33,911 bases of DNA from Opitutales bacterium (GCA_040398005.1 JBBAUX010000006.1:19359-53269), one strand, 5' to 3'; shown: positions 7,902-33,074, numbered from the stretch's first letter. A program made the numbers and translations. Notes: generated from the sequence alone by a model not told the origin.

Positions 7902-8390
7902 TTATGCTTCGGATGACTCCAGCTCATCTATCGGTGAAAGAATATCATTATTTTCACTATCCGGCATACTCATGTCGGACAGATCATCTTGTTCGGAATT
8001 AGCGAACACTTCGTGCGTCGAAATCCCATCGACAAAATCGTCAGCCTCATCGGCCATCGCTGCACTCAGGTTGTAAAGCGCACCCGTGTACTCCGAGGGT
8101 AATGTCACCCTGAGTTGTACAAAAACTAAAGCGATTAAACAGGCGTAAGATGCCACTTGGCTCATGCGTTTAACGTAAACCCGCAACCAGGCAAATGAGT
8201 GATAGGCCTGCTTGGTTTGATGAGCAGCCAGACACTTATTCAGAGCCTGATGTAAGCGTACCTTGGCTTTAAAACGTTTTTGGAAATCTGGAGATTCCTT
8301 AATTAACTCGAGTAAACGCGACTCTTCTGCCCGAGAAATATTTCCGTCGAGATAGCGTTCAACTAAGTTTTCAAATTCCGTAAAACTCAC
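7902..8390 (-). CDS. Putative membrane-anchored anti-sigma factor
   Basis: Overlaps the ECF sigma stop by 4 bp. N-terminus resembles an anti-sigma domain (LVERYLDGNISRAEESRL), followed by one hydrophobic segment (YACLIALVFVQL) and an acidic C-terminus. Confidence 0.65.
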   Translation of the reverse strand: MSFTEFENLVERYLDGNISRAEESRLLELIKESPDFQKRFKAKVRLHQALNKCLAAHQTKQAYHSFAWLRVYVKRMSQVASYACLIALVFVQLRVTLPSEYTGALYNLSAAMADEADDFVDGISTHEVFANSEQDDLSDMSMPDSENNDILSPIDELESSEA

Positions 8391-8977
8391 TTTAAATACT
8401 CATCTCCTATGAGTTCGCGTAAAGCCTCACGTGCGCGATTGATTCGACTTTTAACCGTGCCGATTGAAAGTCCAAGTTCTTCCGCAATATCATCATAGGA
8501 CATATTTTGAATATTACGCATGGTCAGTATGAGAGCATGCTCGGGCTTTAATTGTTCCATGCAGTCGGCAACTTTTTTAACGAATTCATTCTGCTGTGCT
8601 TCGTGACCTGGACCCTGTGCACCGTCCGACAAAATATCATGCAAGGTTGCCCCAGCATCTTCTCCGAGATCTGCGTCTAGTGACATCGACTCATCACGCT
8701 TGCGGCGGCGCCAGTACCAGTAGCGATTCCTCGCTAAATTAGTTCCGATTTGATAGATCCAAGTCGAAAAACTGGCATTTCCACGAAAGGTCGCGAGTGC
8801 ACGGTGGGCCCGGATAAAAGTATCTTGGGTAATCTCTTCGGCGTCTTGCCTATTTCGTAACATCGAAAAAACCTTAGCAAAAATTCTCTCTTGGTATTTT
8901 AGTACCAATTGATTGTACGCATCTAAATCACCCTTGCGGGCACGATCTAGGTTAAGGTCATCTGATTCATTATCCAT
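8387..8977 (-). CDS. ECF-family RNA polymerase sigma-70 factor (RpoE/SigW-like)
   Basis: Region 2 DAEEITQDTFIRA...FRGNASFSTWIYQI; region 4 SYDDIAEELGLSIGTVKSRINRAR. Confidence 0.95.
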   Translation of the reverse strand: MDNESDDLNLDRARKGDLDAYNQLVLKYQERIFAKVFSMLRNRQDAEEITQDTFIRAHRALATFRGNASFSTWIYQIGTNLARNRYWYWRRRKRDESMSLDADLGEDAGATLHDILSDGAQGPGHEAQQNEFVKKVADCMEQLKPEHALILTMRNIQNMSYDDIAEELGLSIGTVKSRINRAREALRELIGDEYLK

Positions 8978-9025
8978 AATTAGGGCTAATTAATGGTGGG
9001 GTATCTGAGTATAGTACTGACATCC

Positions 9026-9054
9026 TTGCAGAATTCAACTGCTCTCTTTAGTCT
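9026..9054 (+). promoter_or_regulatory. Putative sigma-70 promoter for the GTPase operon
   Basis: TTGCAG (9026-9031), 17-bp spacer, TAGTCT (9049-9054); AAGGA SD-like element just before ATG 9076. Confidence 0.5.
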
Positions 9055-9075
9055 ATTTTAGGCCCCCAAGGAACT

Positions 9076-10794
9076 ATGTTCACCTCCAGTAAGAAGAAAG
9101 CGATCGTGCAGTGGTATAATTGCACCCTAGGCACTAAGGGCAGCTTTGAAACTCTGCCCGCCAAACTCCCCGCGGAGAGTCTTTTACCATCCATTATTCT
9201 CACGCAGACTCCGACGCATATTTCCATCGAATCGGTGGCGGGTAAAAAGATTTTCGTGAATGGAAATTTACTGATTAAGCCCACACCGATTTCTGAAACA
9301 ACCACTCTGCAATTTCCTGATTCACTGTGGGTGATTGCTCCAAATCCTGAAATCAATTTCGGCGAAGTAAATAATACGCTCTGGGTTTTGTTCGATGCTT
9401 CGACCGGCGAAAACATTGGCCAATATCCACCTAGTCAACTTTTGAATGCAGCCCAGCACCTGGGTCGCGCACCCGAAACCCTGGCTTGCACTCCTCACGG
9501 TTTAGAAGTGGGTTTTAATCTTTCGCAGATTGCCAGCCACCTCAGTCCCCACGAAGAAAATTTTGTGAAGACTAAATCTTCCGTCACTTTAGCCGAAGAA
9601 AAAAATAAAGGTAGTCACAGCTGCCCAGTCTGTTGGACCCGATTTAATCCAGGCGACGCTCTGAGCATCGCCGTACACGAAGATCTGCGCGGTGATCCGA
9701 TTCTTGGTAGCGATGCTCGACTACGCTTCCACCCCACCCGCTTCAACGATCATGGTCTCGCACTCGACCCCATGGGCCTCGCCTGCACCGACATCGCTTG
9801 CCCTCACTGCCGTCGCCAACTCCCGCCAGGCTATCTGGACATGCCGCACCAGATTTTATCGATCATCGGAGCCCCTAGTGCCGGTAAATCCTATTATTTA
9901 GCCGTACTTACTAGAATTCTCCAAGAGAAACTACCGACCGACTTAGGATTGGCCTTTAAGGACGCCGACCCGACGGGTAATCTGCTCCTCAATCAAATGC
10001 GGAACTCGCTCTTCTCCGCCACCACACCGGAAGAAGCTCTCCTGGGCAAAACCGCCCTCGAAGGTGCCACCTACGAAAAACTTCCGCGACTCGGACGCAT
10101 TGTCTCTCTGCCCCGTCCGTTTATTTACACGCTCTGCGTGCCCAGCCAAAAACAAAAAGAGACCTCGATTATTTTCTACGATAACGCCGGTGAACATTTT
10201 GAGCCGGGCATCGATATCCATGACTCGCCAGGCGCGATGCACGTCGCCACCGCAGCAGGACTCATCTTTCTTTTCGACCCCACCGCGAATGCGCGCTTCA
10301 AAGCAAAATTAGTCGGCGTCGACGATCCTCAGCTTTCCATCAAAGGTCGCATCGATCAGCAAGACACGATTCTGGCTGAAATGGAAATACGGATCAAACG
10401 CGTCATGGGAATTTCCCACAAAGAACGTATCGCTACTCCTCTAGCTTTTGTCGTCGGCAAGTGCGACACTTGGCAATTCCTCCTCACGTCACCACTCGAA
10501 CCTATTCTCCATAACGGTAAAATTGATCTGGAAGCCATTCACCGAAATTCCGACCGCGTTCGTGAAGTTCTGATCCAACTCTGCCCAGGACTCGTTGCCA
10601 CCGCCGAATCTCTCACCCAAGAAATTCGTTACTTCGCCGCGACGTCTTTCGGACACCAACCTGTCGTAATTGCCGAAGGCCCCAATAAAGGTCGTATCGC
10701 ACCCGACCCCCAAAAACTCGCGCCTGCCTTCGTCGAAGCCCCGGTTTATTGGCTCATGCATTTAGCTTCGCCAGAATTGATTCCTGGAAAGTAA
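9076..10794 (+). CDS. Zn-ribbon + TRAFAC-class P-loop GTPase (GAP1-system GTPase-like) with degenerate FHA-like/GYF-like N-terminus
   Basis: CPVC...CPHC Cys pairs; Walker A GAPSAGKS (~aa 265); G3 DNAGE (~aa 369); G4-like GKCD (~aa 461); G5-like ATSFG. Confidence 0.8.
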   Translation: MFTSSKKKAIVQWYNCTLGTKGSFETLPAKLPAESLLPSIILTQTPTHISIESVAGKKIFVNGNLLIKPTPISETTTLQFPDSLWVIAPNPEINFGEVNNTLWVLFDASTGENIGQYPPSQLLNAAQHLGRAPETLACTPHGLEVGFNLSQIASHLSPHEENFVKTKSSVTLAEEKNKGSHSCPVCWTRFNPGDALSIAVHEDLRGDPILGSDARLRFHPTRFNDHGLALDPMGLACTDIACPHCRRQLPPGYLDMPHQILSIIGAPSAGKSYYLAVLTRILQEKLPTDLGLAFKDADPTGNLLLNQMRNSLFSATTPEEALLGKTALEGATYEKLPRLGRIVSLPRPFIYTLCVPSQKQKETSIIFYDNAGEHFEPGIDIHDSPGAMHVATAAGLIFLFDPTANARFKAKLVGVDDPQLSIKGRIDQQDTILAEMEIRIKRVMGISHKERIATPLAFVVGKCDTWQFLLTSPLEPILHNGKIDLEAIHRNSDRVREVLIQLCPGLVATAESLTQEIRYFAATSFGHQPVVIAEGPNKGRIAPDPQKLAPAFVEAPVYWLMHLASPELIPGK

Positions 10795-10798
10795 TTTT

Positions 10799-12928
10799 AT
10801 GCCTCTGCAACTCATATTCACTTCCGCCCCACGTGGCCTCGTGGCTGGGCGTTCGGGGTATTGCACCGTGGCACGTCATCGTTCGATTCCCGATCGGCTC
10901 GCCCAAATTTTAGAATCACTCGGCACCCCACATCAAAATCCCAAAGGCGCCACTTTCACTTTTCGCATCATCGAAGCGAGTAATACCAATTGGTTTGTCT
11001 TATCACGATTCGTGGCTCGCGGACTCGACTACTCACAACGCGACAATCGTCTCGCCCATCATTTAATTTTCACTGCCGAAGAAGCCGCCGTCCTACCTCC
11101 ACCCTCCGCCATTGCCTTTCGCTGGAATGGTTGGTTAACGGAATGGACCAAAGAACCGACCTGGCTAGCCGAAGACACCCGCCCGCTGCTACTCGATAAC
11201 TCTCCAGGCCTTCGCCCCGCATCGGGATGGCGCGAATTCTCAGGCACCGGTGCGAAAGCCGCTTGGTTAGTGAATAAAGTTGGACCCGTAACACTTTGCC
11301 TCACGCAACCACCCGAAGATAAAATCCTTCTTCGTCTCTTAGCAGAATCCGCCGCCTTGCTCGGGCAATCGGCGTGGTACGCGACCTTCACCACGAATGT
11401 GATTGTTACAAAATCAGATGGATTTAATTGGGCCGTTGGCGCAGTCGCTGGTCGACCCGAAATCAATCTCAGTCAAACCCATCAACTTCCTGCCCCCACC
11501 GGTGAACTCGCCGTCCAAGCAGCCACGGGAAACAGTGCACCGATTCCGGCTCGCACAACTGGCGAAAAAAATAGCTCAGCGGTTAATCATGCTAAATCAA
11601 ATCAGTCTAAACTGCCTTGGAATATAATCATAATTTTCTTCAGCTTAGGAATTTTAGCCATCCTTGTCGCCCTCGTCATCGGCCAGATCGGTAACGGTTC
11701 TAAAAATACCGAAACACCCAGCAATCCAAGAGCTCCGGCAATTAATACGACGCAAAGTAGCGATATTTACCGCAGTAATATTGCGATACAAGGGGTCGCC
11801 AGTTTCCTCGACAGCGAAAGGTATGTCGACGCCGGTAAACTCTGGCTCGAAAGTGTAAATCATTCCCCCACTTTTGCTGAGCGTTATCGCGAGCAGTACT
11901 TAAGACGAATCACCAAAAATTACTCGGAAATAACTACGAACCAACTTTTACAGCGTCTCACCCTCCCCAATCTCGAAAGCAATACCATCACCGAGATCGC
12001 GGAAGACGCCGCCACCGCCGTACGGGTTGGCACTGAATTAAATATCCCCGTCGACGCTCCTTGGAAAAAATTAGTGAACATAAATGAGCAAATTCAAATC
12101 ATTTCTCAATTAGATATTCGTCCAGTTATTTTAGTCAGCGGTAGTTGGCAAACGACTGACCTCGGAAAATCCGCGCCCTCTTCCGCGGAGTTTAAATTGA
12201 GCAATGCGGGTGCGGAAAAGATTTTGAAATTTATAGAGTCAACCAAAGTCACCCCAGAACTTTCACACAGCGCCCGCGTCCGTTTACTTCCGTTAAATGC
12301 CTTTCATAAGCGGGATGACAAAACACCCTATTATAATGCCGAAATACGCCGTGGCGGTAAAATTTATTGGATTGAAACCACGGGTACCGCGGGCACGGCC
12401 CCAATCATTCTTGGCATTGGACCTAAGAAAAATTCCGTCGAACTTAATTTTCCTGACGGAGCTGCCGCCAGTTTACAGGAACAAAATCGCTTACTAGAAA
12501 TCGTTCTACCTAATGGCACTCGCCAGTGTATCGGCCTCATTGCTGATTGGAAAAAAATCAAGCCGCTGAATCTTGGCACTTGGGCTCTCGATGTCGAACG
12601 TGACACGGGGGTGGTCCATGCCGCCGCTTGGGCAGAAAACGCCTTACGCGCTTTTCAACCTGAAGCCGGAATGGTCGGACTCTACCCCACCGAACACGAA
12701 TTCCCCGATCGTGACCTCGCCTCTCTTCGCGCCACGCGTTCGCTTCTCGAAACTGACTTACTCCGTAACGAATACAAAGAAAGCACGCGCATCTCGAACA
12801 AAGAAGTCATCAAATCGCGCAAACAGTTCTTTGCCCAAGGCGATTATATCAACGCAGGACGTCCTTGGTCACTCATCATCGTCAGCCCTAAAGGCGATGC
12901 CGCTGCCACCCTCATTGAGTTTCAATAA
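10799..12928 (+). CDS. GAP1-N2-like domain protein with one TM helix and an uncharacterised C-terminal domain
   Basis: N-terminal QLIFTSAPRGLVAGRSGYCTVA and DYSQRDNRLAHHLIF match the GAP1-N2 pattern as I recall it. TM IIIIFFSLGILAILVALVIG at ~11624-11683. Confidence 0.7.
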   Translation: MPLQLIFTSAPRGLVAGRSGYCTVARHRSIPDRLAQILESLGTPHQNPKGATFTFRIIEASNTNWFVLSRFVARGLDYSQRDNRLAHHLIFTAEEAAVLPPPSAIAFRWNGWLTEWTKEPTWLAEDTRPLLLDNSPGLRPASGWREFSGTGAKAAWLVNKVGPVTLCLTQPPEDKILLRLLAESAALLGQSAWYATFTTNVIVTKSDGFNWAVGAVAGRPEINLSQTHQLPAPTGELAVQAATGNSAPIPARTTGEKNSSAVNHAKSNQSKLPWNIIIIFFSLGILAILVALVIGQIGNGSKNTETPSNPRAPAINTTQSSDIYRSNIAIQGVASFLDSERYVDAGKLWLESVNHSPTFAERYREQYLRRITKNYSEITTNQLLQRLTLPNLESNTITEIAEDAATAVRVGTELNIPVDAPWKKLVNINEQIQIISQLDIRPVILVSGSWQTTDLGKSAPSSAEFKLSNAGAEKILKFIESTKVTPELSHSARVRLLPLNAFHKRDDKTPYYNAEIRRGGKIYWIETTGTAGTAPIILGIGPKKNSVELNFPDGAAASLQEQNRLLEIVLPNGTRQCIGLIADWKKIKPLNLGTWALDVERDTGVVHAAAWAENALRAFQPEAGMVGLYPTEHEFPDRDLASLRATRSLLETDLLRNEYKESTRISNKEVIKSRKQFFAQGDYINAGRPWSLIIVSPKGDAAATLIEFQ

Positions 12929-12933
12929 GCTGA

Positions 12934-15894
12934 ATGCAAATTGATAAACTGATTGCACGGATTCGCGGACAACTCGAAATTGGCACGCCCGACCTCGAAG
13001 CGCGTACCTTGGCGAGTGAGTACTCCGCACTTTGCCAACGTGCCCGTGAGCGTCTCGAGCAATGCAATACTCTGATTCGCAATGGTAATGACTACGCAGC
13101 TTTTCAAATCGCCGAAACTGAACCCGATTTACTGACGCTCTGTAGCCAACTGAGTTTTGCCGATTCGGAACGGTGGCATACACTCTGTCGCGAACGCGGA
13201 CTCCCCTCTGGTTTCATTCTCGATGAACAACCTATTTTAGCGGTCGAAGGTTTATACGGGAAATCCATCGGTGAAAACCATCAGCTCTATCGCGAGTACC
13301 GTGATGCCATGCGCACCCACGATGAAGATCGAGCCCTCAATGTCCTCCGCTCCATCGTCAGAATTAATCCCGAAGACCCGACCGCTCGCTCCGAGTTGAT
13401 TCGCTTATCCGCCAAGTTTATTCGCGAGTCGCTGCATAACTTAGAAAAATTATTAGATGAAAATAAAGATGATGATGCGATTAACTTGATGGGGCAAATG
13501 GAGCGCTTTGGTGATGATGACTTAAATTCCAAACCCGAGTGGGTCAGTGCACTCAATCGCCGCATCACGATTTTACGTCAGAAAGCGTCTCAACAAATCC
13601 CCACACTCATCAAAGAAGCGGAGTCCGCGAAAAGTAATCAACTCTGGGAATCATGCATTCATTCATTAGCAAAAATTAGAACACTCGAGCGCGACCACCA
13701 ACTGAGTCTCTCCGAGAATATTCAGTCTTCCCTTAAAAGTCTCGAAAATTGGGCAGGCGAACTGGCGGCGGCTCACGAATCAGAAGCCGCGATAAAATCG
13801 AATACCCAACATCTCGTGACGCAGTGGGAAAATCTTTCGGAAAGTATTCAAAAAGGGAACTCGCCGGTCATTTTAATCTCTAGTCTAAATGACTGGCTCG
13901 AACGGGCGAAGAACTTTGCTGAATATCTTCCCAGCGGATTAATTGATAAGGTTAATTCTGCGCTGAAATTAACCCGGGCCCGCCTCACGCGTCGCTACGC
14001 CCTCTTAATTTCTACCTGGATTGCCGGTTTTCTCATTCTGGTGGGCGCACTCTTCTACGGCTATCGCACTCAAGAATTAAAATCGGAGGCACGACGTAAC
14101 TTCCAAGAAATTCGATCTCTGCTCGAAGTCTGGGACACCGAAACCGCTGCTCAAAAACTAACCAGCGATAATAAAAATACTATTTTAAACGATAAAAGTT
14201 CAGAATTCTTAGACGAATATACGGAAATTAAAAAAGAGATTCAAACACAGCGCGAAACCCTCACCACCCTGCGCACCGAAGCGAGTTACCTCCAACAGGC
14301 CTTCCAATCGGGCATCACTCTTTCCAACTACGCGGAAGTTAATACGCACGCCAAGGCCTACCTCCAAGCCATCGCCCAAGTGGGACCCAAGGCGGCCGAA
14401 GATTTAAAGAAATTATGTCCCGACCCTGCTCTTATTCTTTCGAGCTGCCAAAAAACCACGGAAGAGAGTCGCGCACAATTATTCAATCTCCGCATCCAGC
14501 TTAAAAAATCTATCGGTAGTAACGATAAGATTTCGGATTTACCGAGTGCGCTTAACACCATTGAGAAAATTCGTCCACTCATTCTCAGTCTCTCGATTGC
14601 AGGGGTGAAAGACCTCGATGAAGCGAATGCCGAAATTGATCGGGCGAACATCCGGATTGAAAGTGAAAACCACGCCCTCTCCCAACTGCAGAGCCTCACC
14701 CAAGCCACCGATCTCAAAGTGTATCTCAATGCCCTAGGCTCAATCATCAAAAATAATACAACAAGCTCCCCATTAAATAAGAGTGCGCAAAACATTATTA
14801 ATCATTCACCTAAGATTCTCACTCTGCCCCGCTCTGTTTTAGCGCCCCACATCGGAGCCATGTGGGATAATATCCCGAATACTGATTCCTCCGGACTGTT
14901 TCAGCCGTCGCAACTCACGCCGTATGAATCGAATATTGTTCAAGCTTTAGCTGATAGTCGTACTGCCCTATCGATGCGCCGATATTATGTACGACAAACG
15001 TCCTCCGAAGGGATTAAAAAAATACGCTCTGTGGTGATCTCTGGCGAACTCGACATACAACGCAAAGGCTTCAATGGCGGCATGGAATATGTAGTCACTG
15101 GCAAAGAACTAAATCGTGATGGAGAATTAACCGACACTTCATGGAGTCGCCGAGAATTCCGAACCGAAAAAGGTGAAATCATCTCGAAGGGCGAAGACCT
15201 GGTTGAAGAAACCCCTGTGGGTGAGCTCGATTACCTCCGACAGTTCAATCGCTTCTTCGAAGTTAAAAATGGTCAACTCTCTGAACCCATTATTCGTAAA
15301 CTCGATTTAGTCCGTCGGAGCCCCGCGCCATTCTTCGAATTGCGCGCCTATCAACTGCAAGAACTTTTCAAAGTCGCCAATCAGCGTCCGGAAATTTGGG
15401 GTATCTTGTATTCACCTTCGGCCCAACGTGACGCTGAGCAACTCCGCCGCATTACCCAAAACTCCATCAATTCGTACGACTTCCTCTTTAAAGAAAAATG
15501 GACCGATGCGCTCGGTGAGCTAAAATCCATTCTGCTACGTCAGGGCGGTTGCACCTACGCTGAAGAAGCGCGTTTTTGGCGAAGTCTCTTCGCCAATCTG
15601 CGCACAAAGAAAATGATTTACGTCGGCTTCCAATCCGATGACGGCGAAGCGATTCTGCGCGAAAAACTTTCCGATACTCTTATTTTCGGTATAGATAATG
15701 AAGGTAAAGCGAGTGTGCTTTATCGTGTCGATGCCGATGGCAACCGCACCCGTATCAATGAACCCGCGCCTCTCTCGCCTCTGCTCCGTCTTTCGACAAC
15801 CATCACGGAGGCCGCTAAAGCTTCCAAAATTCCGACTAACCTCAACGTACCCGAAGGAGGCTGGGAAGTCATTCTCCTTGGCCGTGATTTATAA
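12934..15894 (+). CDS. Large alpha-helical/coiled-coil single-pass membrane protein (986 aa)
   Basis: Long ORF with helical L/E/A/R-rich composition, a TPR-like stretch (ALNVLRSIVRINPEDPTARSEL) and TM YALLISTWIAGFLILVGALFYGY at ~13996-14064; 5-bp gap to the upstream gene. Confidence 0.75.
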   Translation: MQIDKLIARIRGQLEIGTPDLEARTLASEYSALCQRARERLEQCNTLIRNGNDYAAFQIAETEPDLLTLCSQLSFADSERWHTLCRERGLPSGFILDEQPILAVEGLYGKSIGENHQLYREYRDAMRTHDEDRALNVLRSIVRINPEDPTARSELIRLSAKFIRESLHNLEKLLDENKDDDAINLMGQMERFGDDDLNSKPEWVSALNRRITILRQKASQQIPTLIKEAESAKSNQLWESCIHSLAKIRTLERDHQLSLSENIQSSLKSLENWAGELAAAHESEAAIKSNTQHLVTQWENLSESIQKGNSPVILISSLNDWLERAKNFAEYLPSGLIDKVNSALKLTRARLTRRYALLISTWIAGFLILVGALFYGYRTQELKSEARRNFQEIRSLLEVWDTETAAQKLTSDNKNTILNDKSSEFLDEYTEIKKEIQTQRETLTTLRTEASYLQQAFQSGITLSNYAEVNTHAKAYLQAIAQVGPKAAEDLKKLCPDPALILSSCQKTTEESRAQLFNLRIQLKKSIGSNDKISDLPSALNTIEKIRPLILSLSIAGVKDLDEANAEIDRANIRIESENHALSQLQSLTQATDLKVYLNALGSIIKNNTTSSPLNKSAQNIINHSPKILTLPRSVLAPHIGAMWDNIPNTDSSGLFQPSQLTPYESNIVQALADSRTALSMRRYYVRQTSSEGIKKIRSVVISGELDIQRKGFNGGMEYVVTGKELNRDGELTDTSWSRREFRTEKGEIISKGEDLVEETPVGELDYLRQFNRFFEVKNGQLSEPIIRKLDLVRRSPAPFFELRAYQLQELFKVANQRPEIWGILYSPSAQRDAEQLRRITQNSINSYDFLFKEKWTDALGELKSILLRQGGCTYAEEARFWRSLFANLRTKKMIYVGFQSDDGEAILREKLSDTLIFGIDNEGKASVLYRVDADGNRTRINEPAPLSPLLRLSTTITEAAKASKIPTNLNVPEGGWEVILLGRDL

Positions 15895-15897
15895 ACG

Positions 15898-16500
15898 ATG
15901 AGTAAACAAACTTCATTTCGTCTACGCTGGAAGGGTGCCATTTCCGAACCGCTTTCGCTTGCCCAGATTAGTGATAAATTACGCTCCGGTGAAATTAGTT
16001 TAATCCATAACATCGAAGTCGAAGGCTCTTGGATAACTATTCGCGAGTACTTCCGGACCATTGGCTTAAGTCGCTCGCCCCTCACCACAGCCACGCAAAT
16101 TAAAAATCAGGAATCAGACAGCAACCTTCCCGAAATTAAAGCGTCCGAGACGAGTCATAAAAATAATCAGCCGAACCTCGAACACACTGTACGCATGGGC
16201 TACCTCTGGTGTGGCTCCACTTTTATTTTCCCACTTTTATTTTCCCTCATCGTACCCATCTTAGAATTTTTAACTAAGGAGACTTTTCCGTTCTCCTCCC
16301 GGTTTGTCCTTCTGGCCTTTGGCACCCTTATGGGATGTGGACTTCCCTACTTATCGATCCGACATATTAACGGTTACATTCAAGACCACGGACTGGGCGA
16401 TATCGTCAAAGATCAGCAAAAACTTTACGTTACCCTCGCCACGGCTAGTGCCCTCGTTTGGCTCATAGTTTTCTGGATTTTAGCAGGGTCTAAGGCCTAA
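15898..16500 (+). CDS. GYF_2-like N-terminal domain + multi-TM membrane protein
   Basis: WKGAISEPLSLAQISDKLRSGEISLIHNIEVEGSWITI fits the GYF_2/DUF4339 pattern; about three hydrophobic helices in the C-terminal half. Confidence 0.65.
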   Translation: MSKQTSFRLRWKGAISEPLSLAQISDKLRSGEISLIHNIEVEGSWITIREYFRTIGLSRSPLTTATQIKNQESDSNLPEIKASETSHKNNQPNLEHTVRMGYLWCGSTFIFPLLFSLIVPILEFLTKETFPFSSRFVLLAFGTLMGCGLPYLSIRHINGYIQDHGLGDIVKDQQKLYVTLATASALVWLIVFWILAGSKA

Positions 16501-16559: not shown

Positions 16560-16636
16560 GGTAGCGTAGCTCAGATGGTTAGAGCGCGGGACTCATAAGC
16601 CTGAGGTCGGCAGTTCAATTCTGCCCGCTACCACCA
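16560..16636 (+). tRNA. tRNA-Met (CAT), probably elongator; CCA encoded
   Basis: Cloverleaf: acceptor GGTAGCG/CGCTACC, D arm GCTC/GAGC, anticodon loop CTCATAA, T arm GGCAG-TTCAATT-CTGCC, ACCA end. TTGACG -35-like element at 16514. Confidence 0.95.
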
Positions 16637-19780: not shown

Positions 19781-20781
19781 ACTGCGTCGTCTTTGGTGCC
19801 GGTGCGTGGGGCACCGCCTTTAGTTTACACTTAAGTCGTCAAGGCCACACCGTGACGCTCGTGCCTCGTCGCATCGAGCAAGCCCTCGAACTCGCGACCA
19901 CGCGTGAAAATAAAGATTACTTGGCCGGACATAAATTACCTCTCTCCATTCAAATCGGACTCGAAGCTCTGCCCGCGTTAATGGATGCGGACATCGTATT
20001 CCTCGCCTATCCTTCCAAAGGTCTCGCGGATTTACTCAAACAAATCGGCCCATCTATTAAATCATCGGAAACCGTGAAGATGGTAGTTTCACTCACTAAG
20101 GGACTTGATCAAAAAACTTTACAGCGTCCGTGCGAACAGATGTCACAAGCCTTCGGAAAAATTCCTGTCGGCACATTTAACGGCCCCAGCAACGCCCAAG
20201 AAGTCGCGCGCGCCCAACCGACTGCGATGGTTCTTGCCTCCAATGCTGACGAAAAAACTTTAAGCGAAGTCCAAGCCGCCATCAGCGGACCCTCTCTGCG
20301 TGCTTATACTTCAACGGATATCGCTGGCGTCGAAATCGGTGGTACTTTGAAAAATGTCTACGCCCTCGGTGCCGGTCTTTGCGATGGATTAAAACTGGGC
20401 GATAATGCTAAAGCCGCCTTTCTCACTCGTGCCCTCCAAGAAATGATGCGCGTGGGCCAAGCGCTCGGCGGTAAAAGCGAAACTTTCCTCGGACTGAGTG
20501 GAGTCGGTGACCTCATGGCCACCGCCCACGGTTCCTGGAGTCGTAATCGCGCCCTCGGTGAAGCCATCGCTCGCAATGCCACACAGGCTTTAGCCGGACT
20601 CGCCTCACGTCGTGATGCCGTTGAAGGCCATCGCGCTACCGAAACGGTCAGTCGCTTAGCGAAGTCACGTAACGTCGACGCTCCGATTTTATTTTGTTTA
20701 AATAAAATTCTTTTTGAAGGTCTCGACGCTCGTGCCGGAGTCACCGCGCTCATGACTCGCGATCTCAAATCTGAAATATGA
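19777..20781 (+). CDS. gpsA: NAD(P)H-dependent glycerol-3-phosphate dehydrogenase
   Basis: GAGAWGTA, TKG, GPSNAQEV, LKNVYA, GDNAKAA and GDLMAT...SRN motifs. Confidence 0.96.
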   Translation: MNCVVFGAGAWGTAFSLHLSRQGHTVTLVPRRIEQALELATTRENKDYLAGHKLPLSIQIGLEALPALMDADIVFLAYPSKGLADLLKQIGPSIKSSETVKMVVSLTKGLDQKTLQRPCEQMSQAFGKIPVGTFNGPSNAQEVARAQPTAMVLASNADEKTLSEVQAAISGPSLRAYTSTDIAGVEIGGTLKNVYALGAGLCDGLKLGDNAKAAFLTRALQEMMRVGQALGGKSETFLGLSGVGDLMATAHGSWSRNRALGEAIARNATQALAGLASRRDAVEGHRATETVSRLAKSRNVDAPILFCLNKILFEGLDARAGVTALMTRDLKSEI

Positions 20782-21242
20782 GTACCTGGGACGTCACCAC
20801 ACGCCCCTCAGCTATTTCGGGTCAAGGTCTCTTCGCCACCCGTACCTTTTCTCAAGGCGAAATCATCGCACCCTACTTGGGAAAAGTTCTGACCTCTCGA
20901 CCGGTAAAATCTTCGGAGTCATCCGCTACTTACATTTTAGAAATTAAACCCGGGCTCTGGATTGATGGATCCGACACCGAAAATCCCGCTCGTTCAGCGA
21001 ACCACTCGTGTGAACCCACCGCCGAACTGGTGATGAATGAAACCGAAAGCTTCGCCAACCTCCGTGCGTCCTCTCATATTCTGCCGGGTGACGAAATAAC
21101 CCTTGATTACGGCTTTTCGTTGTCGGAAAGCCTTTTTAACCCCTGTACCTGCGGGAAAATGAGCTGCGCCGGTAAAATCATCGCCGAACCACTCCGCCCC
21201 GCCCTCCGTCGCCACCTGCGTTTTTTACGTCGAAGGGATTGA
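20778..21242 (+). CDS. SET-domain protein (putative lysine methyltransferase) with post-SET Cys cluster
   Basis: GQGLFA, NHSCEP, GDEITLDY and CTCGKMSC motifs. Confidence 0.9.
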   Translation: MSTWDVTTRPSAISGQGLFATRTFSQGEIIAPYLGKVLTSRPVKSSESSATYILEIKPGLWIDGSDTENPARSANHSCEPTAELVMNETESFANLRASSHILPGDEITLDYGFSLSESLFNPCTCGKMSCAGKIIAEPLRPALRRHLRFLRRRD

Positions 21243-21295
21243 CCACCCTCCCTCCGAGCCTCACTTTTCAAACTTCTATTTATCTATACCCTTAA

Positions 21296-22687
21296 ATGAA
21301 AAAAGTAGCCATTACTGAACTTGATCCTCGCCTGCAGAAGCAAATCACTGCCGCCGATCAACAGCTCAAGACCAATCCTCAATACGCCATGGAAGTTCTT
21401 TCCGGTATATTGTCGCGTAATCCTGGTTGCTTAGAAGTCCGTCGCTCACTCCGTCGTTCACAAAAAGCAATTCTCGGAGTTAAAAAAGGAATGTTCGATG
21501 GATTACTCGGAGGCAATGCCGACAAGGCAGCCGAAAAAGATCCCCTCGCCGCCATTCAAGCCGCTGAAGATATTTTCGCTAAAAAACCTGGTGATATCGG
21601 TGCCAATAAATTACTCGCCGCGGCTGCGCTCAAACTCGACTTCCCCGAGCTCGCTGCTTTCGCCTACGAAGAACTCACTCAGGTCGACGCCAAAAACGTT
21701 CAACACTTTATCGACTTAGCTAACACCTGGATCACCGCACACGAATACGATTCCGCGCTTAATGCTGCAGACGCTGGTTTAAAACTTTTCCCTGGAAACG
21801 GCGACCTCCAAGAATCCGTGCGTAAAGCTTCAGTGAGCAAGACGATGCGCAAAGGAAACTGGGAAGACAAAGGCGACTTCCAATCCAAACTTAAAGATAA
21901 GGACGAAGCTCTCCGTCTCGAACAATCCACCCGCACGGTTACCGATTCTGGTACCGCACTCGAACAAGCCGCCACACTCGCAGTTAAAATCCAAGCACAA
22001 CCTGATAACCTCGATCTTTACCGTGAAATCGTTCGTCAATTCATCGGTGCGGGCGACCTCGATAGTGCCGTCGCTTGGTTACAACGCGGACGTCTGACAA
22101 CACTGGGCAAACAAGACTCTTCTCTCGAAAGTCAGGAAATCAGCCTCATCACTCAACGCTTTGAAAAGGTTTCCAAACTTCTTGCGGAAAAAGTTCAGGC
22201 AAATCCGGCCGACGCTGCTGCCGTCGCCGAACTCGCCACGAACGATGCAGAACTGACCGCCTACAGACTGCAAACTACCGCAAGCCTCGTGGAACGTTAC
22301 CCGAACGATTACTCATTCCGCTTTGAATACGGCAACTTACTCCTCAATGCCGGTCGCCTCGACGAATCGATTCAACAATTACAATACGCCCAACGTAATC
22401 CTAAATTCCGCCAGGCCTCGATTCTCGCCATCGGCAAAGCTTTCACGGCCAGCTCTAAATTCGATTTAGCCGTCGACCAATTCAACTTAGCTAAATCCGA
22501 ATTACAGGTGATGAATGATCTTAAGAAAGAAGTGATTTACGAGCTAGCGAGTGCCTTTGAGAAAATGGGTCGCACCAAAGAAGCGATGGAAGAATTTAAA
22601 GCTATTTACATGGCCGACTCCGGATATCGTGATGTTTCGAAGAAAATTAATACCTTCTACGAAAACCAAAAAGGACCTGCATCGTAA
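21296..22687 (+). CDS. Tetratricopeptide-repeat protein
   Basis: Repeated TPR-like units (e.g. FRFEYGNLLLNAGRLDESIQQLQ, YELASAFEKMGRTKEAMEEF) and a C-terminal YRDV motif. Confidence 0.85.
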   Translation: MKKVAITELDPRLQKQITAADQQLKTNPQYAMEVLSGILSRNPGCLEVRRSLRRSQKAILGVKKGMFDGLLGGNADKAAEKDPLAAIQAAEDIFAKKPGDIGANKLLAAAALKLDFPELAAFAYEELTQVDAKNVQHFIDLANTWITAHEYDSALNAADAGLKLFPGNGDLQESVRKASVSKTMRKGNWEDKGDFQSKLKDKDEALRLEQSTRTVTDSGTALEQAATLAVKIQAQPDNLDLYREIVRQFIGAGDLDSAVAWLQRGRLTTLGKQDSSLESQEISLITQRFEKVSKLLAEKVQANPADAAAVAELATNDAELTAYRLQTTASLVERYPNDYSFRFEYGNLLLNAGRLDESIQQLQYAQRNPKFRQASILAIGKAFTASSKFDLAVDQFNLAKSELQVMNDLKKEVIYELASAFEKMGRTKEAMEEFKAIYMADSGYRDVSKKINTFYENQKGPAS

Positions 22688-26119: not shown

Positions 26120-27394
26120 TTAGTTCTTCGCTTCCCGCACCAACCGCTTTAATAAAACGGTCGCGTCCCCCGCCCCCTGGTCGAAATTAAAGAAGACGTC
26201 CCCGCCCGAGTCTTTACCGATTTCAATGCCGTTATTATACTCCTTAATATCCAGAATCTTGTTCAGCTTGAAATTTATGTTTTTGTATTCGCCGTTAAAA
26301 ATTACTCGTTGGTCCGTAAAAATCGCCGTCCCGCTATCTATTTTAGTCAACTGATCTTGCGTTTCGCGCTGCACATCGAAACTGCCGACGCGATAACGCA
26401 AACTGCCGAAGATTTTTATACTCGAAGAAAATCCGCCATAGTTTCGGCGTACCACGGTGCGCTTAACCATTAATAAGCCTACGGGCTGCATCCAATAACA
26501 GATTTCACTGCCTAATTCCAAGTTACACTCAACCGGCGTGAGCTGACCTTTCAAGAGCGTATAATATTTCTGTGCCCGATTAAACGCAGCTTGGACCGCA
26601 GGATAATTCGCTAAGTGCAAATCGAGATCTACAGCTACTTGATTGTACTGTTTAACATTATCGGGTGAGATAATGAGCTCTCCATCCAAAGTTTCACCGA
26701 GGAATTTAATCTCCTGCATTAAGACTTCACCCCAAATGATAGTGTTCAAACTATCCATAACAGTATCAGGCAGTGGAATACTCCCAGCTAAGGTGCGTAT
26801 TTGCTCCCGTTTCTCAGCAAACTCTCCCGGTCCATTTAAAATACTCTGAAAAGCTTTTTTGTAATATTCTAAAAAAACTTCTTTTTGTATTTCATAGGCC
26901 CTCTCTTGTATCATGCCCAAACTGTACATGAGATTATTTAAATTAGTCTTTTCCTGTGAGGTGAAAAGATGATCCTCTAAATGAGCTTGGACCATCAAAA
27001 GATACCACGCCTCTAACTCTTTTTTGCAGCGACGATGTAAATTAGATCGGGTCGCTTGATTGATTTGCTCAATATCAGCTGCGGTTAACTGACACTCCTG
27101 CTGCGCCGCCGTTAACTTATCCCATAACATCGCCAGCATCATCGGCTTGCTCTCTCGGGAGAGTAGCTGATCCCATAGATTAGCTGATTTTTCTTCCGGA
27201 CGTGGAAAAGGTAATTTCCAAACCTTCTGTGTATTTACTAAATCATAAAGTGGCTTCCAGGCGGTCATCCCAGAACGCCAGAAAAAATCCGTTTCCATCA
27301 GCTGACCACTGGTAATGAGACTCGGAATTTCCTGAACGGCAAACAGTCCAATCTCCTCCCCACTACGAGCAATATGTACGCGGTCAGCTACCAT
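26120..27394 (-). CDS. GYF_2 (DUF4339) domain protein with helical middle and beta-rich (PH-like) C-terminus
   Basis: IARSGEEIGLF...SGQLMETDFFWRSGMTAWKPL is a clear GYF_2 pattern; C-terminal IDSGTAIFTDQRVIFNG. Confidence 0.75.
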   Translation of the reverse strand: MVADRVHIARSGEEIGLFAVQEIPSLITSGQLMETDFFWRSGMTAWKPLYDLVNTQKVWKLPFPRPEEKSANLWDQLLSRESKPMMLAMLWDKLTAAQQECQLTAADIEQINQATRSNLHRRCKKELEAWYLLMVQAHLEDHLFTSQEKTNLNNLMYSLGMIQERAYEIQKEVFLEYYKKAFQSILNGPGEFAEKREQIRTLAGSIPLPDTVMDSLNTIIWGEVLMQEIKFLGETLDGELIISPDNVKQYNQVAVDLDLHLANYPAVQAAFNRAQKYYTLLKGQLTPVECNLELGSEICYWMQPVGLLMVKRTVVRRNYGGFSSSIKIFGSLRYRVGSFDVQRETQDQLTKIDSGTAIFTDQRVIFNGEYKNINFKLNKILDIKEYNNGIEIGKDSGGDVFFNFDQGAGDATVLLKRLVREAKN

Positions 27395-27443: not shown

Positions 27444-28898
27444 TCACTCACCCTTCTTCACTCCCCCATCCTTTTTAGTCGCCTTGCCTGGCGTTACGAT
27501 GACGGGGTGTATTTTTTTACTCAGGGCCTTTAATTCGCTCATTATCGAAGCAAACGCCTGGTCCTTCGCCAAATTCTTTAGTTCCTGTGGATCATTCTCG
27601 TGATCATAGAGTTCCACACCCTTCTCTCCATTTTGCCACTCGGTAAATCTCCAACGTTCAGTTCTCACACTGTAACCCTGTACCTTATCTTTACCCTTCG
27701 TCACTGTTTGCGTATAGGCCGCTCGACTCCAGGGCGCATCAGCGTTCGCTAATAACGGACGCAAACTGACACCCTCTAGTCCATCAGGTGCCTTCACACC
27801 TGCCAAATCAGTCAAGGTGGGATAAATATCCACCAACTCAATGGTGCGCTTAGAGGCCTTGCCATTGGCTGCCGCTTTGGGTGCCACAATAATCATTGGC
27901 ACCCTCGCCGCTTCCTCAAAACAGGTCTGCTTCATCCACAATCCGTGCTCACCTAAATGATAACCATGATCACTAATAAAAACGATAATCGTATTGTCCG
28001 CTAAACCTAATCGATCTAACGCATCAACCACTCGACCAATCTGCGAATCTACATAAGAAATAGTCGCATGATAAGCGCGGCGACATTCCCGTGCCTGCTC
28101 TGCCGTTACTCCGTGATATGGCCAATTTACACCCGTATCATAAACGGCCGCTGGCACTGTCGATTTCCAATCATCGGCAATCGGCGGCAGAACCTCATCT
28201 TCCACTTTATACATATCAAACCATTTCTTGGGAGCTACCCAGGGACAATGGGGTTTATAAAATCCGACCGCTAAAAAGAACGGTTTATCTTTATTCGCGT
28301 CCAGCAACTTAATCGCCTCAGTCGCTACCTTACCATCGGTGTGCTCTTCATCTTTGCCTGTGCGATCTGCCAGAAGTGACATCGATGAACCCAGCGCAGT
28401 TGTGGGCGGATAAATCAGAATATCGTTTTCTAAAGCCGTCTTATCGCGACCCGCTGGATTCACGACCTGATTCCATGACGCTGGATCGTCCGCACCACTA
28501 GTGCCAATATCTCCAGGATTTCCATAGTGATAAATTTTTCCAACCCGTGCCGCAAAATAACCCGCCTTCATAAATGCCTGTGGCATCGTCACCACGTCCG
28601 GCATGCCTTGACGAAAATGATAAGCTAGATCCATGACCTTCGTGGTATCCGGACGTAACCCTGTCATAAACGAGGCCCGACTCGGGGCACACCAAGGAAA
28701 CTGACAATAAGCCCGATCAAATTTCACCCCGCGCGACGCTAGCTTATCTAAATTCGGTGACTTCACAAACGGATGACCATACGCACCCAAATCATTATTC
28801 ATATCATCCGATACAATAAATAAGACATTCATCTTTTTGTCCGACTCCACTGCCCACCCCAAAGTCGCCATTAAAAATAAAGCTAACAGAGTTCGCAT
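27444..28898 (-). CDS. Secreted formylglycine-dependent (S1) sulfatase, iduronate/choline-sulfatase-like
   Basis: Signal peptide; NVLFIVSDD, CAPSRAS (CxPxR), GKIYH, KPH and SDHGYHLGEH motifs. Confidence 0.93.
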   Translation of the reverse strand: MRTLLALFLMATLGWAVESDKKMNVLFIVSDDMNNDLGAYGHPFVKSPNLDKLASRGVKFDRAYCQFPWCAPSRASFMTGLRPDTTKVMDLAYHFRQGMPDVVTMPQAFMKAGYFAARVGKIYHYGNPGDIGTSGADDPASWNQVVNPAGRDKTALENDILIYPPTTALGSSMSLLADRTGKDEEHTDGKVATEAIKLLDANKDKPFFLAVGFYKPHCPWVAPKKWFDMYKVEDEVLPPIADDWKSTVPAAVYDTGVNWPYHGVTAEQARECRRAYHATISYVDSQIGRVVDALDRLGLADNTIIVFISDHGYHLGEHGLWMKQTCFEEAARVPMIIVAPKAAANGKASKRTIELVDIYPTLTDLAGVKAPDGLEGVSLRPLLANADAPWSRAAYTQTVTKGKDKVQGYSVRTERWRFTEWQNGEKGVELYDHENDPQELKNLAKDQAFASIMSELKALSKKIHPVIVTPGKATKKDGGVKKGE

Positions 28899-28940
28899 AC
28901 ATTTTATCTACCACATTCTTTTCTTTTCAACCAGCCTCTA

Positions 28941-30176: not shown

Positions 30177-30226
30177 AAGAATAGTTATACACTATAACAA
30201 CCGACCTAAGTAAATGTTCCTCTTTA

Positions 30227-31558: not shown

Positions 31559-31608
31559 TAATTAATCAACCCCACCAAAGCCCAGAAGTTCCAGACCAGT
31601 ATCTCAGT

Positions 31609-33070: not shown

Positions 33071-33074
33071 AGAA

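What the first reader, a model, noticed from the sequence alone, without database searches (positions are those of the whole stretch)
9076..16500. Four-gene membrane-spanning GTPase / GAP1-like system (candidate uncharacterised conflict or envelope-signalling machine)
Seen: four co-oriented ORFs (572, 709, 986, 200 aa) separated by only 4, 5 and 3 bp, with a promoter-like element and SD upstream, set between housekeeping genes. Gene 1 has a full GTPase motif set (GAPSAGKS, DNAG, GKCD). Gene 2 begins with a GAP1-N2-like motif. Genes 2-4 all carry TM helices. Established: GTPase + GAP1 (GTPase-associated protein 1) operons were predicted computationally as NTP-regulated 'ternary' conflict systems (Aravind group), and I know of no experimental characterisation. 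Inference: this is a single-GTPase variant in which two components cross the membrane and carry large unrecognisable distal domains. No nuclease, TIR or protease effector is visible. It may be a trans-envelope sensor/switch (anti-phage, contact sensing or membrane remodelling) rather than a soluble toxin system.
Basis: partly seen in the sequence, partly recalled or inferred. Interest (0 to 1): 0.88.

Follow-up and report, generated by a model that had tools for sequence, protein, structure and literature searches.

The report
Membrane GTPase switch lacking its motor
Four tightly packed genes encode a GTP-driven switch and three membrane partners from a family predicted, but never tested, as a defence system; here they are inherited like housekeeping genes, and many relatives attach an ion-driven motor to them, so they more likely control a cell-envelope machine.

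Summary
The operon is real: a DO-GTPase2-like GTPase with a zinc module, a membrane-anchored GAP1-N2 protein, an unnamed ~1,000-residue TPR-like single-pass protein (G3), and a GYF-like membrane protein. It is a GYF-type variant of the GAP1-N2 systems predicted by Kaur et al. 2020. This scan found it before on other DNA (five notes).

It behaves like core machinery: 79 of 101 family genomes, one site, purifying selection like its neighbours, GTPase not found in the viral contigs or plasmids searched, no effector. It is dispensable: two congeners show a clean empty site.

Added here: (1) a complex model places G3 residues 113-161 on the GTPase zinc module (0.67 against best control 0.15), and that G3 unit and the patch are kept or lost together in relatives; (2) a MotA/ExbB-type gene of this subfamily occurs almost only with the GTPase (25 of 27; 9 of 9), while this lineage lacks it and another links a PilM paralogue; (3) the neighbouring ECF sigma does not depend on the operon.

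Best reading (0.5): a GTPase-gated trans-envelope scaffold, analogous to Myxococcus MglA-Agl-Glt, here without its motor. Defence 0.22. Nothing is shown experimentally.

The parts
7902..8390 (-). Anti-sigma-like single-TM protein (162 aa); neighbour, not part of the module
   Evidence: No Pfam hit over a cut-off; TM at 79-97; overlaps the sigma gene; the anti-sigma label is my inference from position and a recalled N-terminal pattern; kept at the empty site
8387..8977 (-). ECF-type sigma factor, divergent from the operon; neighbour
   Evidence: Sigma70_r2 and r4_2; found in 135 of 221 order genomes, including families where the GTPase was not found; kept at the empty site
9018..9039 (.). Conserved TGACA-N12-TCAAC element, probably two overlapping divergent -35 boxes (TGACA for the operon, TCAAC read on the minus strand for the sigma gene)
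   Evidence: 30 of 30 family-type loci; 2 copies in G000, 1 intergenic; at both empty sites TCAAC stays and TGACA reads TCACT; promoter function is inferred
9068..9072 (+). SD-like AAGGA before gene 1
   Evidence: Sequence
9076..10794 (+). G1: degenerate FHA-like domain (~10-95), small domain with invariant W103 (GYF by position only), split zinc module (183-245), DO-GTPase2-like TRAFAC GTPase (255-565); soluble
   Evidence: Pfam PF19993 E 8.5e-6; alignments; FHA and GYF_2 over the cut-offs in distant orthologues L091, L093, L100; own FHA profile hits 25 of 54 rows but not the window's, own GYF profile 0 of 54
9622..9810 (+). Zinc module CPVC...CPHC; its insert (191-195, 218-229) is the predicted docking patch for G3
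   Evidence: Four Cys invariant in 54 of 54 rows; interface in the complex model; zinc binding not tested
10799..12928 (+). G2: GAP1-N2 (4-128), GAP1-M-like domain (140-245), disordered linker, TM (276-294), outer helical bundle (317-436), beta-sandwich (443-581), alpha/beta domain (590-708)
   Evidence: PF20013 E 6.9e-17; GAP1-M over the cut-off in orthologues L091, L093, L100; AlphaFold2 mean pLDDT 84.9, pTM 0.53; no specific fold match
12934..15894 (+). G3: cytoplasmic TPR-like helical region (1-357), TM (356-374), ~600-residue outer part (helical rod, beta hairpins, helical and beta domains); large unnamed family
   Evidence: AlphaFold2 mean pLDDT 84.2, pTM 0.48; only generic TPR or three-helix matches, Z 8.5 or less; more K/R before the TM than after in 43 of 47 rows; 793 representatives at E <= 1e-30
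13270..13416 (+). G3 residues 113-161: predicted GTPase-binding helical unit
   Evidence: Complex score 0.67, best control 0.15; conservation 0.70 against 0.48 for the rest of 1-285; shortened orthologues begin at this unit and two duplicate it
15898..16500 (+). G4: GYF_2-like domain (7-52), linker, three TM helices
   Evidence: Pfam GYF_2 weak in 9 of 21 aligned members, not in the window's own; own GYF profile E 1.2e-7, best hit among 1,304 ORFs of G000, but 6 of its 13 seeds are fourth-gene proteins of related operons; TMs
16560..16636 (+). tRNA-Met(CAT); downstream neighbour
   Evidence: present downstream in 14 of 15 family-type loci scanned; no att-like duplication; kept at the empty site

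Best explanation
The four proteins form one inner-membrane complex in which a GTPase switch controls the assembly or placement of a scaffold that reaches across the envelope. Steps: (1) G1 binds and hydrolyses GTP (all motifs intact: shown in sequence; activity inferred). (2) G1 docks through its zinc module on the cytoplasmic helical unit of G3 (modelled, with evolutionary support). (3) G2 supplies the cognate GAP1 domains (family prediction; contact with G1 not scored here). (4) G4 and the N-terminal FHA/GYF-like domains of G1 are peptide-binding adaptors (inferred from domain families). (5) The long outer parts of G3 and G2 contact the wall, the outer membrane or a surface (inferred). In the fuller form found in Prosthecobacter, Chthoniobacter, one Opitutales family and more distant Verrucomicrobiota, the same module is followed by a MotA/ExbB-type channel gene and two single-TM Asp-bearing partners, so the switch would gate an ion-driven machine, in the way MglA, GltJ/GltG/GltI and AglRQS work in Myxococcus (analogy, not homology). 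In this lineage the dedicated motor is missing, and the module persists as a constitutive envelope organiser or sensor, possibly using another ExbB/TolQ set or the PilM-type cluster elsewhere in the genome (untested).
For: Inheritance like core genes: GTPase in 60 of 63, 7 of 7, 1 of 1 and 10 of 10 genomes of four genera, 0 of 19 of a fifth; one copy of each gene in the 1.44-Mb G000; order-level presence mostly all-or-none by family, e.g. 16/16, 5/5, 4/4 against 0/16, 0/15, 0/13. dN/dS 0.04-0.07 (G1), 0.08-0.15 (G2), 0.05-0.10 (G3), 0.10-0.19 (G4) against 0.04-0.07 (ptsI) and 0.05-0.09 (nadD) in four pairwise comparisons, with outer parts no faster than cytoplasmic parts. A quick tree of 54 GTPases groups 38 rows, mostly titled Opitutales or Opitutae, on one side of a branch (SH-aLRT 99). 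Where the operon is broken up, G3 is kept elsewhere in 5 of 5 genomes and G2 in 4 of 5. Motor: Pfam MotA_ExbB directly downstream in L065, L074, L079, L089, L093, L095, L098, L100; the top-band motor orthologue is in 27 of 401 phylum genomes, 25 of which have the GTPase, 20 on the same contig within about 9 kb, and in 9 of 221 order genomes, the same 9 that have the GTPase in that family. PilM paralogue 4-6 kb downstream in 4 of 7 genomes examined of family f43. Complex model: score 0.67, best of 3 controls 0.15; the mark was reached by 116 of 157 solved complexes and 2 of 215 mismatched pairs (counts hold only roughly here); runs agree in 100% of contacts, partner pLDDT at least 84. In family f11 the zinc patch is intact in the 3 loci whose G3 starts at the predicted unit and substituted in the 5 where G3 is eroded or not found. 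Agl-Glt parts list from PMC11135422 (abstract, discussion) and PMC11761067 (passages).
Against: No experiment exists. The window's own genome lacks the motor (tblastn; profile), as do 39 of 48 GTPase-bearing order genomes, so the output here is not identified. The TM helices of G2 and G3 carry no conserved Ser/His pattern of the TonB/TolA kind (pattern recalled). The two Asp-bearing partners do not match four ExbD proteins by profile (probability 0.7%). PilM does not vanish with the operon: 19 of 19 genomes of the genus without the GTPase keep it. The module is dispensable: two congeners show a clean empty site. Only 57 of 401 phylum genomes have the GTPase. The G1 side of the interface is no more conserved than the rest of the zinc module (0.78 against 0.74), distant orthologues with G3 also differ at G193/D194, and the f11 pattern may be one or two events. 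The named motor-bearing genera are non-motile by my recall, so gliding itself is unlikely.
Confidence: 0.5

Rival explanations
1. Anti-phage or anti-predator system, as Kaur et al. proposed for the family and loosely like Zorya: the outer domains sense an attack at the envelope, the GTPase sets a threshold, and the variable GYF-membrane protein or the channel acts as effector.
For: Family-level prediction (PMC7159879, sections 27, 29, 35 part 1). Patchy across the phylum (57 of 401) and lost as a block. The fourth gene swaps its C-terminal part between lineages: PrsW, RDD, CD225, DUF4190, trypsin. Outer parts of G2 are 6-11% identical in the last 20 alignment rows, with an extra paralogous outer module in L066, L068 and L077. 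The motor gene scores weakly on ZorA models, E about 1e-6.
Against: No PADLOC hit better than E 0.02 for the four proteins; no enzymatic fold found. Of 121 flanking proteins from 31 loci, 12 hit PADLOC at E <= 1e-5: 5 are the motor gene, 2 are GlgB, and 5 others (mad3/mad8 twice, E1-E2, RT-protease, PD-T4-6) are scattered. No relative in viral contigs or plasmids. Same site and purifying selection across genera; native codon use and GC3; parts kept after break-up.
Confidence: 0.22
2. Envelope-stress signalling to the neighbouring ECF sigma: the complex senses damage and triggers release of the sigma from its membrane anti-sigma.
For: The divergent sigma is adjacent in 46 of the 80 loci (72 had 1.5 kb or more upstream) and in 16 of 16 f9 genomes; it was not found in the genus that lacks the GTPase (0 of 11). 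GYF-PrsW fusions sit in or beside the operon in L082, L083 and L093; that PrsW cleaves an anti-sigma is recalled. A preprint passage calls DO-GTPases predicted players in membrane stress (10.1101/2020.09.24.301986).
Against: The sigma is in 135 of 221 order genomes, including 16/16, 15/15 and 13/13 in families without the GTPase, and is mostly not found in GTPase-bearing f86 (1/16) and f73 (1/5). Sigma and anti-sigma-like gene stay at both empty sites. In 16 sigma-adjacent distant loci an ECF-type motif faces the sigma gene in 9 and the GTPase in 2.
Confidence: 0.13
3. A relic on its way out: the module lost its motor and is being eroded, with little function left in this lineage.
For: Motor not found; FHA and GYF-like domains of G1 degenerate; two empty sites within the genus and none of 19 in a sister genus; stepwise loss of G4 and G3 in f11 loci.
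Against: All four frames intact; dN/dS under 0.2 throughout; 7.4 kb kept in genomes of 1.2-1.5 Mb; motor-less form present across several families.
Confidence: 0.1

Closest known systems
GAP1-N2-type GTPase-centric (DO-GTPase/GAP1) systems, Kaur, Burroughs, Iyer and Aravind 2020 (PMC7159879; computational prediction)
   Same: DO-GTPase2-like GTPase with Walker B glutamate and zinc-binding cysteines, followed by a GAP1-N2 protein; single-GTPase form; TM-fused GAP1; GYF partner fused to trypsin or a TM region; Verrucomicrobia among hosts.
   Different: No GAP1-C or FNIII-repeat component detected; the third constant part is an unnamed ~1,000-aa TPR-like single-pass protein; FHA/GYF-like domains on the GTPase; fixed, vertically kept site; relatives add a MotA/ExbB-type set or a PilM paralogue, which the main text does not mention (0 occurrences of MotA, ExbB, TolQ; the source-data file could not be read).
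Myxococcus MglA / GltJ-GltG-GltI / AglRQS focal adhesion machinery (PMC11135422, PMC11761067)
   Same: Parts list: GTPase switch, zinc module, GYF, FHA and TPR domains, single-pass proteins with long outer parts, and in relatives one channel subunit with two different plug-like subunits.
   Different: No sequence homology shown; different GTPase family; domains are arranged differently (zinc module and FHA on the GTPase itself); no MglB/AglZ or outer-membrane partners identified; motor missing in this genome.
Zorya (ZorA/ZorB) anti-phage systems
   Same: Relatives carry a MotA/ExbB-type channel that scores weakly on ZorA models (E about 1e-6).
   Different: The window has no such gene; no long ZorA tail (about 300 aa against profiles of 505-698 positions); no OmpA-type hit on the partners; no nuclease or helicase effector beside it.
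ExbB-ExbD-TonB and TolQ-TolR-TolA motors
   Same: Relatives: PF01618 channel plus two single-TM proteins with an invariant Asp; G3 or G2 could take the place of the transducer.
   Different: No ExbD profile match; long coiled coils in the partners; no TonB/TolA-type TM pattern; no solved-structure match for the channel profile at E <= 0.01.

Membership tests
GAP1-N2-type DO-GTPase systems | TRAFAC GTPase of the DO-GTPase family with a conserved Walker B glutamate | tested here: met
   PF19993 E 8.5e-6, 26 bits against cut-off 27; orthologues L081, L085, L093 pass the cut-off; E373 invariant in 54 of 54
GAP1-N2-type DO-GTPase systems | GAP1 gene directly downstream with a GAP1-N2 domain | tested here: met
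   PF20013 E 6.9e-17, 4 bp downstream
GAP1-N2-type DO-GTPase systems | GAP1-M domain | tested here: met
   Not hit in the window's protein; over the cut-off in orthologues L091, L093, L100 at the matching position; folded domain 140-245 in the model
GAP1-N2-type DO-GTPase systems | GAP1-C domain | tested here: not met
   No GAP1-C hit in the window's G2 or in the G2 orthologues scanned; linker and TM follow GAP1-M
GAP1-N2-type DO-GTPase systems | One or two N-terminal zinc ribbons on the GTPase | tested here: met
   Two invariant CxxC pairs 54 residues apart; whether they form one site or two was not resolved
GAP1-N2-type DO-GTPase systems | Component with FNIII repeats | tested here: inconclusive
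   No Pfam FNIII hit in the four proteins; G2 holds one beta-sandwich with weak Ig-type matches (target TM about 0.4); domains were not folded alone
GAP1-N2-type DO-GTPase systems | Mobile neighbourhood | tested here: not met
   Same site across the family; not in viral contigs or plasmids; native composition. Phylum-level patchiness and transposases beside L081 and L091 are the exceptions
GAP1-N2-type DO-GTPase systems | Effectors highly variable between close relatives | tested here: not met
   G4 83-91% identical in the nearest relatives, dN/dS 0.10-0.19; it varies only between distant lineages
GAP1-N2-type DO-GTPase systems | Activity against invading elements | not testable with these tools
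   No experimental paper found
Zorya | ZorA/ZorB motor genes plus soluble effectors in the operon | tested here: not met
   No such genes in the window's operon; in relatives only weak ZorA scores over the TM part and no effector among the flanking proteins scanned
Agl-Glt / Ton / Tol motors | MotA/TolQ/ExbB channel and ExbD/TolR plug genes belonging to the system | tested here: not met
   Orthologues of the linked motor not found in G000; its four ExbB/TolQ genes lie in other operons
Agl-Glt / Ton / Tol motors | Energy transfer from the channel to a single-pass transducer | not testable with these tools
   No motor-G3 or motor-G2 complex was modelled; TM sequences show no TonB/TolA pattern

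The most novel reading that the evidence does not exclude
A Verrucomicrobiota-wide GTPase hub (GTPase, GAP1, unnamed TPR-like single-pass protein, GYF adaptor) that plugs into interchangeable envelope machines: an ion-driven one-channel/two-plug motor in most lineages, an actin-fold PilM alignment complex in another, and in small-genome Opitutales none of its own. It would be an independently assembled counterpart of the Myxococcus MglA-Agl-Glt switch, and would show that a family filed under conflict systems includes spatial regulators of envelope machines.
Probability: 0.3. Interest if true: 0.8.

Novelty: new variant of a known kind. Interest (0 to 1): 0.55.

Why it matters
DO-GTPase/GAP1 systems have only been predicted, and are cited as immune systems. 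This variant offers a direct test of that label: it is kept like a housekeeping module even in 1.2-1.5 Mb genomes, has natural deletions, and has a motor-bearing form in a cultured genus (Prosthecobacter, L056). It also gives a first concrete, testable contact (GTPase zinc module with G3 residues 113-161) for a family of about 800 distinct ~1,000-residue proteins without a Pfam model. If the switch gates envelope motors, bacteria have a second GTPase-controlled trans-envelope machine besides the myxobacterial one, in a phylum whose envelope biology is poorly understood.

Tried and rejected
NCBIfam and PADLOC gave nothing for the four proteins. The GTPase profile found no solved structure better than E 0.26; the motor profile none at E <= 0.01; the partner profile only coiled-coil matches. 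Fold searches on whole models gave STAT-like or mTOR-like hits with TM-scores of 0.11 or less on the query and helical hits at Z 8.6 or less; I treat these as common arrangements. The beta domains of G2 and G3 were not folded alone, so their folds are barely tested. ESM Atlas: only unnamed Verrucomicrobiota clusters and TPR at 0.79 or less for G3, nothing for the outer part of G2. Co-loss with type IV pilus genes: rejected. Integration at tRNA-Met: the operon lies 5' of the tRNA and no att-like repeat was found. Transcription: nine RNA runs were listed with word shares of 0.06 or less; in 3 of 4 runs laid, contigs about 90-95% alike cover pieces of all four genes, and one bridges G1-G2, but another runs on into opposite-strand genes, so DNA may be present and no transcript is shown. 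Profile comparison of G4 with G1 found no shared GYF. An apparent counter-example to the patch/G3 link (intact patch without adjacent G3 in L034, L037, L040) fell away when G3 was found elsewhere in those genomes. Proline-rich linkers as GYF ligands: only 15 of 46 G2, 8 of 21 G4 and 13 of 54 G1 rows, not persuasive. For the motor counts I kept only the top score band, chosen after seeing the gap: 23 of 50 phylum genomes and 4 of 13 order genomes with lower scores were dropped as probable paralogues. The careful tree did not finish; the quick tree is quoted. Literature: searches for DO-GTPase, GAP1-N2, 'GTPase-associated protein 1', double-GTPase and a Verrucomicrobia/GYF/FHA/ExbD/GTPase combination found no experimental study in the held library; one search gave nothing used.

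Full report
Observation. The four ORFs, lengths and gaps are as described. Gene 1 carries all GTPase motifs and scores on Pfam DO-GTPase2 just under the cut-off; gene 2 has a clear GAP1-N2 domain; genes 3 and 4 have no Pfam, NCBIfam or PADLOC assignment. TM helices are at G2 276-294, G3 356-374 and three in G4, at matching positions in most relatives. GC content, GC3 and codon use are native, and each gene is single-copy in the 1.44-Mb genome. The nearest relatives (91-96% identity) are titled Opitutales or Opitutae MAGs. Upstream and divergent lie an ECF sigma and a TM anti-sigma-like gene; downstream lie tRNA-Met, rsfS and nadD.

Anatomy. G1 has an N-terminal region that aligns with FHA and GYF_2 domains of distant orthologues. 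It is degenerate here: my FHA profile hits 25 of 54 rows but not the window's, my GYF profile none. A split zinc module with four invariant cysteines precedes the GTPase domain. The AlphaFold2 model of G2 (pLDDT 84.9) shows GAP1-N2, a GAP1-M-like domain, a disordered linker, the TM, then a helical bundle, a beta-sandwich and an alpha/beta domain. The model of G3 (pLDDT 84.2) shows a TPR-like cytoplasmic part, the TM and a long helical and beta outer part; charge bias supports N-in topology in 43 of 47 rows. Neither model matches an enzyme or any specific fold, though their beta domains were barely tested. G3 belongs to a large family: 793 representatives at E <= 1e-30, the best 150 mostly 900-1,050 residues. 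G4 starts with a GYF_2-like domain; in distant lineages the gene at this position joins GYF to DUF4190, CD225, RDD, PrsW or trypsin.

Distribution. Of 80 related loci, 55 show all four genes in order, 22 end too early and 3 are split. The GTPase was found in 57 of 401 phylum genomes, 48 of 221 order genomes and 79 of 101 family genomes: 60/63, 7/7, 1/1, 10/10 and 0/19 by genus. Kin are not independent, so these counts describe a few gains or losses. Of the three negative genomes of the window's genus, two show a clean empty site with sigma, anti-sigma-like gene and tRNA-Met retained; the third also lacks ptsI and is probably a gap. dN/dS against four close relatives is at or slightly above that of ptsI and nadD, and the outer domains are not faster. 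A quick tree keeps the Opitutales-type rows together and Prosthecobacter with Chthoniobacter; three rows titled Enterobacteriaceae or Klebsiella and one titled Akkermansia share Opitutales synteny and are probably mislabelled bins. No relative was found in viral contigs or plasmids. In five genomes of a Puniceicoccales-rich clade where the operon is broken up, G3 is kept elsewhere in 5 and G2 in 4. This is how parts of a working complex behave, not how a mobile cassette behaves.

Larger forms. In Prosthecobacter, Chthoniobacter and more distant Verrucomicrobiota the operon continues with a MotA/TolQ/ExbB gene and two single-TM coiled-coil proteins with an invariant Asp at the start of the TM. 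I saw this before consulting earlier notes (precedes). With a profile of that channel gene, 27 of 401 phylum genomes score in the top band; 25 have the GTPase, 20 on the same contig within about 9 kb (tallied by hand; 23 lower-band genomes dropped). In the order sample the 9 top-band genomes are the 9 GTPase-positive genomes of family f86, 5 on the same contig (4 lower-band genomes dropped). The reverse does not hold: 31 of 56 strongly GTPase-positive phylum genomes and 39 of 48 order genomes lack it, G000 among them. So the switch is the core and the motor an accessory. In family f43, G2 is soluble (L091, L092), and a divergent PilM paralogue follows in 4 of 7 genomes examined; in L091 and L092 it comes with two further single-TM genes. 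The ExbD label for the two partners rests on gene order and the TM Asp only; a profile comparison does not support it.

A predicted contact. I folded G1(178-572), G2(1-246), G3(1-285) and GTP with G3 as scored partner. The model supports binding but does not show it: score 0.67, best of 3 controls 0.15; the mark was reached by 116 of 157 solved complexes and 2 of 215 mismatched pairs, counts that hold only roughly for this job; runs agree in 100% of contacts; partner pLDDT at least 84. No solved relative of the GTPase was found by sequence, so recall of a like complex is unlikely but not excluded. The interface joins G1 191-195 and 218-229 with G3 113-129 and 150-161; no confident G2-G3 contact was listed, and G1-G2 was not scored. 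The G3 side is more conserved than the rest of its region (0.70 against 0.48; 2.2% of slid patterns reach it), the G1 side is not (0.78 against 0.74). Independent support: shortened G3 orthologues in L081, L082, L083 and L099 begin at profile position 113-117, and L082 and L083 carry the unit twice. In family f11, whose GTPases have relatives named Akkermansia sp., the zinc patch is intact in those three loci and substituted in five where G3 is eroded (L087, L088) or not found in the genome (G324, G240, G357). These may be one or two events.

The sigma factor. It is adjacent in 46 of 80 loci and was not found in the genus that lacks the GTPase. It is, however, a core gene of the order (135 of 221), present in whole families without the GTPase, and mostly not found in two GTPase-bearing families. 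It stays at both empty sites. In 16 distant sigma-adjacent loci an ECF-type motif faces the sigma in 9 and the GTPase in 2. In the window's family the spacer holds TGACA-N12-TCAA(C/T) in 30 of 30 loci; at both empty sites the TCAAC half survives and TGACA is lost. I read this as two overlapping divergent promoters (inference, probably one deletion event). Old linkage is shown; a signalling link is not.

Mechanism. Best reading (0.5): a GTPase-gated scaffold across the inner membrane. G1 cycles GTP, docks on G3 through the zinc module and on G2 through GAP1; G4 and the FHA/GYF-like domains act as adaptors; the outer parts of G2 and G3 contact the wall, outer membrane or a surface. In the full form this gates an ion-driven motor; here the dedicated motor is gone and the output is unidentified. 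The parts list parallels Myxococcus, where MglA-GTP acts through the zinc ribbon and GYF of GltJ on AglRQS (PMC11135422: abstract and discussion read, supplement searched with no hit; PMC11761067: passages). This is analogy only. Rivals: defence (0.22), ECF stress signalling (0.13), relic (0.10). Of 121 flanking proteins from 31 loci, 12 hit PADLOC, 5 of them the motor gene on ZorA models at about 1e-6.

Comparison and novelty. Kaur et al. 2020 (abstract, passages, sections 27, 29 and part 1 of 35 read) define the family and mention single-GTPase forms, TM-fused GAP1, Verrucomicrobia and GYF partners. The GTPase, zinc, GAP1-N2 and GAP1-M features are met; GAP1-C, mobility and close-range effector variability are not; FNIII is inconclusive. 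I therefore file it as a variant with the family's core rather than a typical member. The main text has no mention of MotA, ExbB or TolQ, but its source-data file could not be read and may list these neighbourhoods. Two preprints mention DO-GTPases in passing (passages). Six searches found no experimental study in the held library. Five earlier notes of this scan cover the four-gene and seven-gene forms on other DNA; in the few lines shown I saw no mention of the G3 contact, the empty sites or the PilM form. Verdict: real, new variant of a known but untested kind; interest 0.55.

Noticed in passing
window 26120-27394 (-): A separate 424-aa protein with an N-terminal GYF_2 domain (Pfam E 5.9e-7), one of four Pfam GYF_2 genes in G000; no link to the operon tested.
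   Followed up: no
window 27444-33881 (-): Cluster of two sulfatases, two alginate-lyase-family genes and a DUF4982 gene: a likely sulfated-polysaccharide degradation locus.
   Followed up: no
window 20778-22687 (+): SET-domain protein followed by a TPR protein, between gpsA and purA.
   Followed up: no
G000:C2:123738-129836 (-): Large TPR-like protein, a 338-aa protein, ExbB and two ExbD genes in one run; resembles by my recall the Akkermansia MUL1 locus, in a 1.44-Mb genome.
   Followed up: no
G000:C3:63534-70213 (-): PilM-PilN-like fusion with PilO-, PilP- and secretin-like genes (only PilM tested by profile); PilM found in 100 of 101 family genomes.
   Followed up: partly
L066:14414-16399, L068:14480-16465, L077:13946-15931: An extra 661-aa gene between G2 and G3 that resembles the TM and outer part of G2 without the GAP1 domains.
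   Followed up: no
L019:7678-9972, L020, L021: A ~765-aa gene with autotransporter-like repeats and a PEP-CTERM-like tail (read by eye in L019) lies between G4 and tRNA-Met.
   Followed up: no
L105:5239-5406 and L106:5547-5692: Clean empty sites for the operon in two congeners: natural deletions for gene-content comparison.
   Followed up: partly
L019, L021, L023, L028 (record titles): Titled Enterobacteriaceae, Klebsiella or Akkermansia muciniphila but with Opitutales-type genes and order; probably mislabelled bins.
   Followed up: partly
L039-L078 (CAG-312-type clade), upstream of the sigma gene: GAAAC-N16/17-GTCT facing the ECF sigma in 9 of 16 loci: a likely autoregulatory promoter for a core Opitutales sigma.
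   Followed up: partly
L082-L083 (G384): Two paralogous operons in one genome, each with a GYF-PrsW gene upstream of the GTPase.
   Followed up: no
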